The translations under genes were made by a program, and so were the position numbers. The notes below the pieces were generated by a model, which made no database searches, was not told the DNA's origin, and was given only the letters and a program-made list of their open reading frames with translations. Shown one piece after another: positions 14,384 through 49,059 of a stretch of 64,000 nt of DNA. Source of the stretch: Octopus vulgaris (lineage: Eukaryota); NCBI GenBank assembly GCA_951406725.2, contig OX597838.1:3782001-3846000 (forward strand). Reading direction: 5' to 3'. Numbering within the stretch: the stretch's first letter is position 1; each line of letters starts with the position of its first letter.

Positions 14384-15391
14384 GAAAGGATGAAAAGCAA
14401 AGTCTACCTCGGCGGAATTTGAACTCAGAACGTCGATGAAGTAGGTACCAGTAACGTACTAGGGTCCATCTAATCGACTGCCCTCCCCCTCCCCAAAAAT
14501 TTCGGACCTTGTGCCTAGAGTAGAAAAGAAAGGATGAAAAGCAAAGTCTACCTAGGCGGAATTTGAACTCAGAACGTCGATGAAGTAGGTACCAGTAACG
14601 TACTAGGGTCCATCTAATCGACTGCCCTCCCCCTCCCCCAAAATTTCGGACCTTGTGCCTAGAGTAGAAAAGAAAGGATGAAAAGCAAAGTCTACCTAGG
14701 CGGAATTTGAACTCAGAACGTCGATGAAGTAGGTACCAGTAACGTACTAGGGTCCATCTAATCGACTGCCCTCCCCCCTCCCCCAAAATTTCGGACCTTG
14801 TGCCTAGAGTAGAAAAGAAAGGATGAAAAGCAAAGTCTACCTAGGCGGAATTTGAACTCAGAACGTCGATGAAGTAGGTACCAGTAACGTACTAGGGTCC
14901 ATCTAATCGACTGCCTCCCCTCCCCAAAAATTTCGGACCTTGTGCCTAGAGTAGAAAAGAAAGGATGAAAAGCAAAGTCTACCTAGGCGGAATTTGAACT
15001 CAGAACGTCGATGAAGTAGGTACCAGTAACGTACTAGGGTCCATCTAATCGACTGCCCTCCCCCTCCCCCAAAATTTCGGACCTTGTGCCTAGAGTAGAA
15101 AAGAAAGGATGAAAAGCAAAGTCTACCTAGGCGGAATTTGAACTCAGAACGTCGATGAAGTAGGTACCAGTAACGTACTAGGTCCATCTAATCGACTGCC
15201 CTCCCCCTCCCCAAAATTTCGGACCTTGTGCCTAGAGTAGAAAAGAAAGGATGAAAAGCAAAGTCTACCTAGGCGGAATTTGAACTCAGAACGTCGATGA
15301 AGTAGGTACCAGTAACGTACTAGGGTCCATCTAATCGACTGCCCTCCCCCCTCCCCAAAAATTTCGAACCTTGTGCCTAGAGTAGAAAAGA
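14384..15391. repeat. Tandem array, 7 units of 142-145 bp, derived from SINE family B
   Basis: Unit starts (gaaaggatgaaaagc) at 14384, 14528, 14672, 14817, 14959, 15103 and 15245. Units are near-identical apart from homopolymer lengths. Confidence 0.95.
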
Positions 15392-15792
15392 ATAAACCCT
15401 CACACCGCATCCAGCTACTTTTAAGCCTTGGGGGAAATCACGGAAATATGGCCGCCGTGGCTGCAGTATATATATATGCTTATTGACATGCTTCTAATCG
15501 GCCAGTCAATGCAGACCCGGAACTTAACAGCAGCAACAACAGCACTTACAATTAATTTTATCATTTGATTCATTGTTTTTCCCTGTGATATCTTCCGGTT
15601 AATACTTAGAATACCAGACGAAGAAGAGGAACACGACATAGGCAGCCGGATGTTCTTGGTCACAACAGGACAATTTATGCTGAAGCGATATCGTTAGACA
15701 GGAAGCAGCATTATTATTTTGAATATATTTTCTGACAACATGGAAAATCCAGAAACACACGCACACGCGCATACACACTCATACACATTCAT

Positions 15793-41609: not shown

Positions 41610-41655
41610 GACACCTGATGAAGGCTGGAGGGTATATCAGCCGAAAAGTTGTGTT
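41610..41655 (+). ncRNA. Minimal type I hammerhead ribozyme, canonical core, in a PLE-like pLTR (41598-41731)
   Basis: gacac CTGATGA a ggctg-gagggtatat-cagcc GAAA AG TT gtgtt. The paralogue at 606 reads GAAACGTT, so stem III carries one substitution here. Confidence 0.78.
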
Positions 41656-42408
41656 AACAACAAGCAAGATGAGGACAAATATCCGCCGAAGGTAAATAAT
41701 GCACACAATTCCTCATCTCTTGAATATAGAATTGTAATACGAAACATGTTAACAAAACTCGGTGATGGCTTTAATTTCAATAGAATATCTTTAGAGATAA
41801 CCCGAACAAGGGACGCCATTGTGACCACTTGCATTCGCACAATAAGTAAAGATGGGCAGACGACATTTTTAAATGATGTTATCGCAGGACAACAGTTGTT
41901 GTTTAGTCTCTGCGGATTAATATATACAACAAAGTTAAATATTCACTACTTTCTGCAAGTATGTTTGTGCTGCGAAAATTATTCAATTTATTCTGAAAAG
42001 AAAATAGTTTTAAATACGATATCAAATGGCTTCAGACTATTTAGATGAAGTGAACGTTGTGGCGTATACTTTCACAGGAAGTTTGAATTACTAACGATGG
42101 CATGTAAAAATATTTCTGTGTTTCGGGACATCAAAAGAGATAGAAAGACAGAAAGAGGAAGGGAGAGAGAGAGAGAGAGGATAGGTGAAGATGGTGAATG
42201 AGAGGAAGAGAGAAAGGTGGGAGGAGAGATGATAGAGAACACGGAGGGCAGATGGAAGCAGACCAACATTTGTCGATTTTACATGTGGTTGGGAAGACAT
42301 ATAACGATGATGGCAATGACGGTGGGGGGGGGGGGGCAGGTGGGTGGAAGTGGTGTGGAGGTTCAGACGATGAAAGGATTGCAATGACAATAATAATGAC
42401 AATGGTTG

Positions 42409-45237: not shown

Positions 45238-46528
45238 GTGTGTGTGTGTGTGAGTGTGTGCGTGTGTACTGTTGATGTCATAAAAATTTAGAAACTTCGA
45301 GGGGAAGTAAAATAACTCTTTGCTCTGGCGGGGGACGGGGAAACTCGAATCAGATAGAGCTATCAATAATAACGTGTAAAAATTGCGTATAAAAAACCCC
45401 CTTTAAATAGAAAAAAATTTAAAGTTTTTAACCCAATATTTACATTTCATGTGTGTGTGTGTATGTGTGTGTGTTTCATTTTGTTGATCGCATTTTCCCT
45501 GTTTATTTTGATCTGACCCCTACCCAGCTCCCAACGCGAAAAAAAAGGTTATAAAGAATGACATATTTTTTTTTTTTCAGATATAAATTCATAAAAGAAA
45601 TGTTTTCTTAAAAAAAAAAAAAACGGTTTTGTTTTGTTCCATTTTTCAGAGTCGCCGCAACCATTCCATCTTTGAATATTTAGAATGTCTTAGAAAGGAC
45701 GCAGTGTCAGATTCTCTTTCATATCTCTCCTCCCCCTCCTCTCCTCCCCCTCCTCTCCTCCCCCTCCTCTCCTCCCCCTCCTCCTCTCTCTTCCTCCTCT
45801 TGTTCATTAAGCTAACATAATGAGGTTTTCATTTTTGTGTTTGCAAACTTCAGCTTTTTACTAATTTTTTTTATCTCTCTGCTAACCTCACTCTCTTCAT
45901 CTCTCGCTCTCTCTCTCTACATTTTTTTCTCTCTCTCTTTCTCCTTTTCTCTCTCTCTTTCTCCTTTTCTCTCTCTCTCTTTCTCCTTTTCTCTTTCTTC
46001 TTTTCTCTCTCTTTCTTTATTTCTCTCTCTTTCTCTTCCTTTCTCTCTCTCTCTCTTCCTTTTTCTCTCACTCTGTCTTCGCCTCTCTCTCTCGTTCTCT
46101 CTTTCTCTCTTTTCTCCCTCTGTCTCAATCTCTCTCTCTCTCCTTCTCTCTCTGTCTCCATTTCTCTTTCTTTCTTTCTTTCTTTCTTTCTCTCTCTCTC
46201 TCTCTCTCTGTATTTCTGTCTGTCTCTATCTCTCCCTCTCACCCCCTTGTCCCTCTCTCTCTCCCTCCCTCAGCTGGTGCTGTTACTTCAATGTTACAAC
46301 TTCGCTAGTTTATGAGATGTTACCGCAGATTCGAGGTCACATCCGCCTTCACAGCTTCGCGAAATATAATCTGCCAACGTCCTCGACGCAGAAATTGGCG
46401 AGTAACGCCGAGCCGTTTCCTTGTCTTAACACGTACCTCGTTAAGATCTTGGAGTGACAGGTTCAGAAGATAATACGGAAAGCAAACATCCATCATAGTC
46501 ACAGAAAAGCTACTGGGAGACGATGTCA

Positions 46529-46846
46529 AGGCGCGTGGCTTAGTGATTAGCGTATTCGACTCACGATCAAGAGGTTGTGAGTTCGATACTCGGCAGGGCG
46601 TTGTGTCCTTGAGCAAGACACTTTATTTCACGTTCCAGTCTAGACAGCAGGCAAAAATGGGTTGTACGTGTAATTCGAAGGGGCCAGCCTTGTCGCAATT
46701 CTATGTTGTGCTGAATCTCCCTGAAAACTACGTTAAGGGTACACGTGTCTGTGGAGTACTCGGCCACTTGCACGTTAATTTTATGAGTAGGCTGTTCTCA
46801 CGATCGGATCAATAGAAGTCCTCATCGTCGCAAGCGATGGAGAGTC
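46529..46846 (+). mobile_element. SINE family D
   Basis: tRNA head plus the 3' body shared with 18997. Confidence 0.82.
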
Positions 46847-47491
46847 AGTTAGTTACTGTGGACGATATCTTTGTTGTAGTTTCAGAGTTGTCGTAAAATC
46901 TTACTTTGTTTACTCATTGTGGTATCCATCCCTGACCCTCACCTTGGAAATTTGTCAATCCAGTCTGACATTCGCCTTTTGTCCAAGACACTGATAGTTA
47001 GTTCCCCTTAGTTACAGAGCCTTTATTTTGAGGCCATCCATTGCAGTTTGAGAGAAGGGTACACGTATTCCTCCCCTTGTCGCCATTTAGATTCGCCAAA
47101 TGTCATCCCAGTGCCTGTAAGATACTGGGTCATGGGACCCGATGCATTTTGACATGATTGATAGTGCTTAGTTCATAGAATATCTCGAGGTCTACAAAGA
47201 TGACGTGAGAGATGTTTGTACATTCGTAGTAACTGTTTGTATAAACACCACGTTTTGTGGGTGGAGTATGTTAACTGGTTTAACGAAACGCAGAAAACAT
47301 TGTTGACAGGCTATGACCCACCTAAAAAGATACCACTTTAATAATGTATAATACTATGTTTTACTGCTTTGCCCTCACTTCCCAGAACTGAGGAGATGTA
47401 CCACTTTTTAGTTAGTCGTTATATACTTTAATAGAAATATTAAAATTACTAAGTCTCTATAAAAGAGAATATGGCAGCGTTTACTGGAAAT

Positions 47492-47845
47492 TAATTGTTA
47501 TCGCCATATTAATATGGCATTCTTATAGATACAAGAATAATCGCTGCCATGGTCAGCTCCATGAGGCTACTGAAACTAGGTAAATATAAGCCTTCGAACA
47601 GAGACGTCAGTGGCGACACCTGCGGGTCTGACTGCGCTACATTGACAAGGGGCAATACCCCGAAACGCGTCTGTAGCTGTCGGACTGGCAGTGTGAAGCG
47701 GCTGACCTCCCTTGTTCGAAGGTTATAATGGATACAGATCGTGTATCAATAGCTATCTTGATGGCGGTGGCCTCATGGAGCTGACCATGGCAGCGATTAT
47801 TCTTATATCTATAAGAATGCCATATTAATATGGCGATAACAGTTA
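47492..47845 (+). mobile_element. Rod-like fold-back element with 79-bp terminal inverted repeats
   Basis: 47492-47570 pairs with 47767-47845 (3 mismatches, 2 of them G-U). Inner imperfect stems continue up to the hammerhead. Confidence 0.85.
47636..47677 (+). ncRNA. Type I hammerhead ribozyme with U3-A8 covariant core
   Basis: gctaca TTGACAA gggg-caata-cccc GAAA CGCG TC tgtagc. 6-bp stem I, 4-bp stem II, palindromic stem III ACGCGT, predicted GUC cleavage after 47671. Confidence 0.85.
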
Positions 47846-47928
47846 TATACTTTATTTCCCCGGTGTACAAGTTCAATATTTCAGACCAAAGTTTACAGCC
47901 AAAAATGGTAGGTTAAACACCGAGACGT

Positions 47929-48543
47929 GGAGGCGCGTGGCTTAGTGGTTAGGGTGTCAGCATCATGATCGTAAGATTGTGGTTTCGATTCCTGGACCGG
48001 GCGACACGTTGTGTTCTTGAGCAAAACATTTCATTTCACGTTGCTCCAGTCCACTCAGCTGGCAAAAATGAGTAACGCTGCGATGGATTGGCGTCCTGAC
48101 TTTTTTTTATATTTTTACCATAGGTGCAGATGTGGCCGTGTGGTAAGTCGCTTGCTTACCAGCCACATGGTTCCGGGTTCAGTCCCACTGCGTGGCACCT
48201 TTGGCAGGTGTCTTCTACTATAGCCTTGGGCTGACCAAAGCCTTGTGAATGGATTTGGTAGACGGAAACTGAAACTAGCCCATCGTATACATACATATGT
48301 GTGTGTGTGTGTGCTTACATGTCTGTGTTTGCCCTCACCCCACCATCGCTTGACAACCGGTGCTGGTATGTTTACGTCCCCGTAACTTAGCAGTTCGGCA
48401 AAAGAGGCCGATAGACTAAACACTAGGCTTACAAAGACTAAGTCCTGGGGGTCGATTTGTCGACTAAAAGCAGTTCTCCAGCATGGCCGCAGTCAAATGA
48501 CTGAAACAAATATAAGAATAACAGAATAAAAGAATAAAAGAAT
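47929..48543 (+). mobile_element. SINE C (47929-48097, 3'-truncated) followed by full-length SINE A (48123-48543)
   Basis: Match to the 12501 and 11599 copies. Confidence 0.88.
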
Positions 48544-49059
48544 GCGTTATCCCTTTATTCCATATAATTTTTACTCAATATATTTAACGTAACCTAACTC
48601 CACTTTTTCCATTTACGTTGTTCGCGCCGTCTAAAAACTTACCCCATTTATTTCCCATTTAGAATTCTTGTAGCATTCAACTTATTCTTCTGAAATTACA
48701 GTATTTCTCTTGTTTACACTGAAGCTGCGACAGAATAATTTAAGGTTCTTCGGGTGAATTAGTTTATTCAGCATTTTTCTCTTCCTTTTCATAATACGTC
48801 CATTTTGGATTTTTAGTTTTTTCTCACAAATGGCAGTAAATTCTTCTTTCTGCTGAGACAGTTTAGTTTAATGTTTCAAATTAGTTGTCTTTATATTAGA
48901 ATTGGATAAGTAAAAGAAGGGGATGGGGGTCTTTCTTTGGCTTCTTTTTGGTTTTTTTTTTTCTTTTTTGGTTTATGTGTTTGAGATATTTTTAAAGAAA
49001 GTATCCATTTATTTCTGTCTAAGGGTTATCTGTGAAAAAGCGGATTATTTTATTTTATT

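What the first reader, a model, noticed from the sequence alone, without database searches (positions are those of the whole stretch)
47492..47845. ~354-nt rod-like hairpin element capped by an intact U3-A8 hammerhead ribozyme (viroid/retrozyme-like architecture)
Seen: 79-bp terminal arms (47492-47570 / 47767-47845; 3 mismatches, 2 of them G-U on the + strand). Imperfect inner helices follow: tataa/ttata, ccttcgaaca/tgttcgaagg, gtcagtggc/gcggctgac and ctgcgggtctgac/gtcggactggcag, with several G-U pairs. These lead into stem I of a complete type I hammerhead: gctaca UUGACAA gggg-caaua-cccc GAAA CGCG UC^ uguagc. Known: HHR positions 3 and 8 form a Watson-Crick pair (normally C3-G8), so U3-A8 is a compensated variant rather than decay. 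Palindromic minimal stem III is typical of PLE and non-LTR retrozyme HHRs that cleave as dimers. Inference: G-U-tolerant pairing points to selection on + strand RNA. Unlike the other HHRs here, it is not in a microsatellite, has no ORF, and the whole ribozyme sits at the tip of the rod. It could be an undescribed non-autonomous ribozyme-bearing retro/MITE family, or an integrated circular-RNA-like monomer and dsRNA source.
Basis: partly seen in the sequence, partly recalled or inferred. Interest (0 to 1): 0.88.

Follow-up and report, generated by a model that had tools for sequence, protein, structure and literature searches.

The report
Retrozyme copy with inverted Penelope-type arm
This is one young copy of a very common 362-base jumping repeat that carries a predicted self-cutting RNA motif; the long hairpin seen here is just a backward partial copy formed at insertion, likely by a Penelope-type enzyme, so it is a new example of a known kind of element.

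Summary
The hammerhead is real: type I, U3-A8 core, predicted cut after 47671. The 354-nt rod is not the element. The element is a 362/363-nt ORF-less unit with at least 1,224 hammerhead cores in this genome, found as monomers and head-to-tail arrays.

The window copy is a 411-bp insertion (47431-47841) between 13-bp target-site duplications. Contigs of other public runs carry the empty site. The left 'arm' is a 5'-truncated inverted copy. Of its three mismatches, one is host DNA, one is a junction base and one a private change, so they say nothing about RNA selection. Only the inner ~40-bp extended stem I belongs to the RNA, with modest covariation.

Across 138 insertions the 3' ends fall at two fixed points. 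Inverted insertions pair one of each (79 of 93), both arms share a haplotype, and targets are mostly (TA)n. This is the Penelope-like footprint. Neptune-like elements with U3-A8 hammerheads exist in this genome, but the partner was not identified. Cleavage and circles are untested.

Verdict: a new member of the animal non-LTR retrozymes. The scan found this architecture before on other DNA, probably including this family.

The parts
47418..47430 (+). Left copy of the 13-bp target-site duplication
   Evidence: empty-site contigs with 13 letters fitting either side
47431..47567 (-). Inverted, 5'-truncated copy of the unit (unit positions ~99-237), ending at the 'long' (L) 3' end
   Evidence: 98.6% to a tandem unit of another locus
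47431..47491 (-). ~61-bp tail between the short (S, ~175) and long (L, ~237) 3' ends; present on this arm only
   Evidence: 3'-end clusters across insertions
47564..47570 (.). Inversion junction at a 3-4-nt microhomology (CCAC in both donors); T47568 matches neither donor
   Evidence: family sequences
47569..47841 (+). Direct, 5'-truncated copy of the unit (positions 261-363, then 1-170), running across the ribozyme cut and ending at the short (S) 3' end
   Evidence: 98-99% to other copies
47589..47724 (+). Extended, irregular stem I (about 40 bp) intrinsic to the RNA unit, with the hammerhead at its tip
   Evidence: folds; pair counts on 17 monomers
47636..47677 (+). Type I hammerhead: U3 47642, A8 47647, stem II 47649-47661, G12 47662, palindromic stem III 47665-47670, predicted cut after C17 47671
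   Evidence: core conserved across insertions
47842..47854 (+).

Best explanation
The stretch is one recent insertion of a 362/363-nt protein-less repeat with a predicted self-cleaving U3-A8 hammerhead (an animal non-LTR retrozyme), likely written into the genome by a Penelope-like (Neptune-type) reverse transcriptase-endonuclease. Shown: copy number, unit length, tandem arrays, target-site duplication, empty site, two fixed 3' ends and L+S pairing in inverted insertions. Inferred mechanism: the enzyme makes a staggered cut 12-14 bp apart in AT-rich or (TA)n DNA. Each cut strand then primes copying inside the same RNA template, one at the S site (~175 nt after the ribozyme cut) and one at the L site (~237 nt). 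The two truncated cDNAs are joined at a short microhomology, which gives the inverted arm and hence the 'rod'. Inferred from the class and untested here: arrays are transcribed, cleave as hammerhead dimers and are ligated to 362-nt circles. The template is a circle or an uncleaved multimer, not a cleaved linear monomer.
For: Copy number: 205 exact subfamily-A-type cores, 1,224 looser cores, 1,950 and 1,342 hits for two other unit motifs; reversed-pattern controls 0 in each. Unit period 363 in a natural dimer; 18 distinct monomers of 345-364 nt in two subfamilies 86% alike, GC 0.40-0.43. Of 138 distinct insertions, 93 are inverted, 44 one-armed and 1 complex. Inverted ends: L+S 79, S+S 2, L+L 1, other 11. 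In the 90 insertions found by pattern only, 61 are inverted and 51 of 53 classifiable ones are L+S (binomial p 1.6e-13). Targets: 124 of 138 touch (TA)n. Of the 14 that do not, 9 have 12-14-bp duplications in unique sequence, 3 lie in ATT/AAT repeats and 2 show none. Empty site: a joint 47417->47842 skipping 424 bases with 13 shared letters in 2 of 4 runs laid; a contig of a third run also bridges the site. The two arms share a haplotype: subfamily B 3 of 338 calls discordant vs 36% shuffled; subfamily A 15 of 372 vs 18% after dropping three columns beside an indel, 38 of 490 before. Only 2 of 186 arm 5' ends stop at the ribozyme cut. The genome holds intact RT + GIY-YIG elements (776 and 784 aa). 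The 784-aa family and a further family carry U3-A8 hammerheads near their 3' ends, with two 3' ends running into (TA)n. Literature passages: an inverted 5'-truncated copy and a one-sided tail are the typical PLE layout (PMC8557442); a PLE protein cuts and extends both strands and starts at two internal sites that bound the tail (PMC11167929).
Against: No autonomous parent was found. Of 113 PLE-bearing loci, none matched the unit better than E 0.011 apart from two loci that hold retrozyme copies; the best match lies in AT-rich flank beyond the element's end. The tail is ~61 nt against ~31-42 nt in the Neptune-like families seen and 30-40 nt in print. Cleavage was not tested: Rfam does not recognise the motif, and the 2026 preprint saw cleavage in only 1 of 9 predicted Xenopus dimers. 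Covariation is thin: 3 of 44 pairs change on both sides, 2 of them at lineage level, among related sequences. Only 16 of 229 private variants at multiply covered sites are shared by all units of an insertion, which does not separate a circle from a homogeneous source array. Most insertions were found through the ribozyme core or nearby motifs, so the share crossing the cut (129 of 138) is biased.
Confidence: 0.85

Rival explanations
1. The copies are heavily 5'-truncated ends (pLTRs) of an autonomous Penelope-like element that I did not sample, not an independent retrozyme.
For: Same footprint as PLE insertions; retrozymes are related to pLTRs in Xenopus (bioRxiv 10.64898/2026.07.22.740005, parts 1-3 read). 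Only 113 PLE loci of many thousands of candidates were compared.
Against: Units follow one another head-to-tail with no ORF between them, up to about 5.5 units. All 138 insertions are 162-2,000 bp and consist of unit sequence only. The ORF fragments seen beside two copies are separated from them by (TA)n.
Confidence: 0.1
2. The 354-nt rod is itself the mobile unit: a MITE-like or viroid-like element with terminal inverted repeats selected to form double-stranded RNA.
For: The arms are real and the fold is very stable; 61 of 90 pattern-found insertions have an inverted arm.
Against: Arm overlap ranges from 0 to 363 nt among 93 inverted insertions, and junctions differ at each locus. The duplication and the empty site set other ends. 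The arm mismatches are host, junction or private bases. There was no exact match to the core in viral contigs.
Confidence: 0.02
3. The element is a retrozyme-derived passenger whose hammerhead no longer needs to cut: uncleaved read-through transcripts of arrays are the template, and no circle forms. This concerns the RNA step only and is compatible with the best explanation's insertion step.
For: In vitro, hammerhead cleavage was not needed for insertion by the anole PLE (PMC11167929, parts 1-2 read). The copies cross the cut site. Shared haplotypes fit one array transcript as well as one circle.
Against: The core is nearly invariant in both subfamilies, with free change mainly at position 7 and A-U to G-U in stem I. 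The active fold costs only 1.5 kcal/mol. Other animal retrozymes of this size form abundant circles (PMC7229834, parts 2-4 read).
Confidence: 0.3

Closest known systems
Metazoan non-LTR retrozymes (Cervera and de la Pena 2020, PMC7229834, parts 2-4 of 6 read, supplement unreadable; Li, Clavereau and Pollet 2026, bioRxiv 10.64898/2026.07.22.740005, parts 1-3 of 5 read, supplements not seen)
   Same: ORF-less unit of 170-400 nt (mussel 350-390), GC under 50%, one type I hammerhead per unit, monomers and tandem arrays, target duplications longer than 4 bp, co-occurrence with PLEs.
   Different: U3-A8 core and a ~40-bp extended stem I. Two fixed 3' ends with L+S pairing and frequent inverted arms are not described for retrozymes in the parts read. 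Expression and circles are not shown here.
EN+ Penelope-like elements, Neptune-type, and their pLTR/tail insertions (PMC8557442, passages; PMC11167929, parts 1-2 of 4)
   Same: Inverted 5'-truncated copy next to the direct copy, tail on one end only, AT-rich or (TA)n targets, hammerhead a short way upstream of the 3' ends.
   Different: No RT or endonuclease ORF; tail ~61 nt rather than 30-40; no sequence match to the pLTRs sampled beyond the ribozyme core.
U3-A8 hammerhead variant of Schistosoma mansoni Cercyon PLEs (PMC4209133, passages)
   Same: Same compensated 3-8 pair; short palindromic stem III suited to dimer cleavage.
   Different: Here it has the canonical 6-bp stem I and 4-bp stem II and sits in a tandem non-coding unit. 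U3-A8 is the common form among the patterns counted in this genome: 4,570 hits (includes this family) against 6 for C3-G8 with the same ACGCGU stem III; the two patterns are not strictly matched.

Membership tests
Type I hammerhead ribozyme | Core NUGANNA / GAAA / UH with a Watson-Crick 3-8 pair and stems I-III | tested here: met
   core nearly invariant in both subfamilies; Rfam models give no hit
Type I hammerhead ribozyme | Self-cleavage after C17 (monomer or dimer) | not testable with these tools
   only folding: active fold 1.5 kcal/mol above the minimum; the stem III 10-mer pairs with itself at -8.9 kcal/mol and does not fold alone
Metazoan non-LTR retrozyme | ORF-less unit of about 170-400 nt, GC under 50%, one type I hammerhead per unit | tested here: met
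   345-364 nt, GC 0.40-0.43 in 18 monomers; no ORF of 80 aa or more in the window copy
Metazoan non-LTR retrozyme | Head-to-tail tandem copies, dispersed in the genome | tested here: met
   362/363-bp spacing of cores on many contigs; arrays up to 2,000 bp
Metazoan non-LTR retrozyme | Target-site duplications longer than 4 bp | tested here: met
   12-14 bp in 9 of 14 non-(TA)n insertions; empty site
Metazoan non-LTR retrozyme | Expressed as linear and circular monomer RNA | not testable with these tools
   only assembled contigs were available; they cannot show strand, ends or circles
Penelope-like insertion footprint | Inverted 5'-truncated copy, two 3' ends bounding a tail, AT-rich or microsatellite target | tested here: met
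Autonomous Penelope-like element (pLTR of) | Unit contiguous with an RT + GIY-YIG ORF | tested here: not met
   none in 138 insertions; no match in 113 PLE loci; the sample is partial
MITE | Fixed terminal inverted repeats shared by all copies and a short fixed duplication | tested here: not met
   arm overlap 0-363 nt; 44 of 138 insertions have no inverted arm
Viroid-like circular RNA agent | Rod-like unit with ribozymes in both polarities and no DNA phase | tested here: not met
   one hammerhead, plus strand only; the unit folds as a stem with a branched head; over 1,200 DNA copies; no viral contig match

The most novel reading that the evidence does not exclude
A Neptune-type enzyme dimer copies one 362-nt RNA circle from two hard-wired start sites, one per cut DNA strand, so that every inverted insertion gets one short and one long end from the same molecule. 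This small, young, polymorphic family would be a minimal natural substrate for reconstituting the unsolved Penelope insertion cycle and for testing whether retrozyme circles are the retrotransposition template.
Probability: 0.4. Interest if true: 0.6.

Novelty: new member of a known kind. Interest (0 to 1): 0.32.

Why it matters
The rod itself is ordinary: it is an inversion made at insertion. The family matters modestly. It gives direct genomic footprints (two fixed start points, L+S pairing, 12-14-bp duplications, an empty site) that an animal retrozyme is mobilised the way Penelope-like elements are. The papers read propose that route from co-occurrence and sequence kinship. It also names exact start sites and a candidate enzyme class that can be tested in vitro. 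The many inverted insertions are a possible source of double-stranded RNA if read through; that was not tested.

Tried and rejected
Rfam: no hit at gathering score over the window, and only a chance snoRNA hit at E 3.7 in 47300-48100.

Expression: no RNA holder listed. Contigs of four runs only guessed to be RNA cover parts of the unit, but they cannot show strand, ends, level or circles. Not used as evidence.

3-8 covariation within the family: not seen. Of the 100 cores listed, 98 are U3-A8 and 2 are C3-A8; none is C3-G8.

A-to-I editing fixed into copies (a lead from an earlier scan note): not seen. A>G makes up 4 of 16 shared private variants, and among single-copy variants A>G 21 vs T>C 32 of 207.

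Pile-up of 5' ends at the ribozyme cut: 6 of 186 arm ends mapped there by BLAST, but 4 run 7 or more bases across it on inspection.

Autonomous parent: three protein searches and 113 loci gave none.

Viral contigs: 0 exact matches to the core. tRNA origin: ARAGORN found none in 46000-49000.

G-U selection in the long arms, and MITE or viroid status: rejected, see rivals.

Literature searches listed no paper describing this family or L+S pairing for retrozymes. Repbase and Dfam could not be searched. The supplement of PMC7229834 and those of the 2026 preprint were not seen and may list cephalopod repeats. Lunse et al. 2017 (PMC5785218) was seen only as a citation.

Full report
Observation. The arms, the three mismatches and the hammerhead are in the sequence as written. 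The 381-nt stretch folds far better than its shuffles (z -25.6). The ribozyme has a 6-bp stem I, the core UUGACAA with U3 at 47642 and A8 at 47647, a 4-bp stem II closed by G10.1-C11.1, the palindrome ACGCGU as stem III, and a predicted cut after 47671. Rfam does not detect it. A looser scan finds one more convincing hammerhead in the window, a C3-G8 form at 41615.

What the unit is. A search of the own genome (2.8 Gb; an octopus-like animal is my inference, not a tool result) scored 40 of 1,714 candidates. Most full matches covered only the right three quarters of the query. Reading those loci showed a head-to-tail unit with a period of 363 bp. Exact patterns count 205 cores of the window's type and 1,224 cores with a looser pattern. 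Two other unit motifs gave 1,950 and 1,342 hits; reversed controls were 0. Eighteen distinct cut-to-cut monomers are 345-364 nt and fall into two subfamilies 86% alike. Median identity to the subfamily majority is 98-99%, so the family is young.

What the rod is. In the window, 47431-47567 is an inverted copy of unit positions ~99-237, and 47569-47841 is a direct copy of positions 261-363 followed by 1-170. They meet at a 3-4-nt microhomology. A 13-bp duplication flanks the whole. Contigs of 2 of 4 public runs join 47417 to 47842, skipping 424 bases with 13 letters fitting either side; a contig of a third run also bridges the site. So the insertion is 411 bp and is absent from other chromosomes. 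Arm overlap runs from 0 to 363 nt among 93 inverted insertions. One locus has a perfect 172-bp hairpin capped directly by the ribozyme. The long rod is therefore a by-product of insertion.

What belongs to the RNA. The cut-to-cut monomer folds as a circle at -131.6 kcal/mol against -81.9 for shuffles. It forms a long irregular stem with the ribozyme at one tip and a branched AT-rich head at the other. The plus strand folds better than the minus strand in 17 of 18 monomers. On 17 aligned monomers (one with a deleted core was left out), 98.7% of cells in 44 named pairs stay paired. Three pairs change on both sides and six change on one side only, mostly A-U or G-C to G-U. These sequences are related and the structure was derived from them, so this is modest support.

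Insertion footprint. I delimited 138 distinct insertions: 26 picked by likeness to the window, 90 by unit patterns, 22 chosen by me mainly as arrays. Ninety-three are inverted, 44 one-armed and 1 complex. The 3' ends cluster at unit positions ~175 (S) and ~237 (L). Inverted insertions carry one of each in 79 of 93, with S+S 2, L+L 1 and 11 having one end outside the clusters. In the pattern-only set the figure is 51 of 53 classifiable (p 1.6e-13). Targets are (TA)n in 124 of 138; duplications in unique sequence are 12-14 bp. The two arms of an insertion share a haplotype: 3 of 338 calls discordant against 36% in shuffled pairs for subfamily B. For subfamily A it is 15 of 372 against 18% after three columns beside an indel were dropped, and 38 of 490 against 21% before. 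Only 2 of 186 arm 5' ends stop at the ribozyme cut, so a cleaved linear monomer is unlikely to be the usual template. No editing signature was seen.

Likely enzyme. The genome holds many intact RT + GIY-YIG reading frames (Pfam RVT_1 in both proteins scanned, GIY-YIG below its cut-off in one). They have a CX4CXXC linker before the nuclease, which a passage of PMC8557442 assigns to the Neptune and Nematis clades; I call them Neptune-like without a tree. The 784-aa family and another family carry U3-A8 hammerheads with palindromic stem III and end at two points running into (TA)n. No pLTR sampled matches the unit outside the core (113 loci), so the partner is not identified.

Comparison with print. 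Non-LTR retrozymes are described as 170-400-nt tandem repeats with type I hammerheads, expressed as circles in coral, mussel and axolotl, with PLEs proposed as mobilisers (PMC7229834, parts 2-4 of 6). A 2026 preprint links them to pLTRs, sampled no cephalopod, and saw cleavage in 1 of 9 dimers (parts 1-3 of 5). The inverted truncated copy and a one-sided 30-40-bp tail are the usual PLE layout (PMC8557442, passages). An anole PLE protein cuts and extends both strands, starts at two internal sites bounding the tail, and does not need ribozyme cleavage (PMC11167929, parts 1-2 of 4). U3-A8 was reported in Schistosoma (PMC4209133, passages). A review (PMC11722881, passages) added nothing on ends. 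Seven searches listed no account of this family; repeat libraries and two supplements were not seen.

Earlier scan notes. The same architecture was noted for several other retrozyme-like units in this genome, and one note describes a 363-bp U3-A8 unit that is probably this family. I had the L+S result before reading them; the single-template and editing tests were prompted by them.

Verdict. A real feature with misread boundaries, and a new member of a known kind. The ribozyme is well formed but untested. The insertion footprint is the part worth following.

Noticed in passing
window 41610-41660: A C3-G8 minimal hammerhead with a 6-bp stem II just downstream of an (AAT)n tract.
   Followed up: no
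window ~253-443: Inverted pieces 68-80% similar to the hammerhead-bearing 3' end of the 784-aa Neptune-like family.
   Followed up: no
window 46522-46662 and 47924-48073: Two related heads of a very high-copy SINE-like repeat; ARAGORN calls no tRNA there.
   Followed up: partly
window 14384-15392: Seven tandem copies of a 144-bp unit at 98% identity.
   Followed up: no
L213-L217 (for example L215:6100-6520): Other ORF-less U3-A8 hammerhead elements with a similar stem II, a long extended stem I and a similar hairpin shortly before the 3' end; weak similarity to this unit upstream of the cut, none significant downstream.
   Followed up: partly
L165:2222-4576 and L161:2291-4621: Two young Neptune-like families with intact 784- and 776-aa frames in many copies. 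The 776-aa family ends in a hammerhead-like motif with G11.1-type irregularity that my scan missed.
   Followed up: partly
G000, genome-wide: U3-A8 hammerheads with palindromic stem III number 4,570 by one pattern and belong to many families.
   Followed up: partly
L064:2932-3305: The inverted arm joins through the stem I microhomology, giving a perfect 172-bp hairpin capped by the ribozyme.
   Followed up: partly
unit positions 39-46 (window 47710-47717): Inversion junctions cluster at the short palindrome inside the extended stem I.
   Followed up: no
L315-L321: A further RT family with a C-terminal nuclease-like region preceded by a CxC motif and no hammerhead found within the fetched flank; clade not tested.
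   Followed up: no
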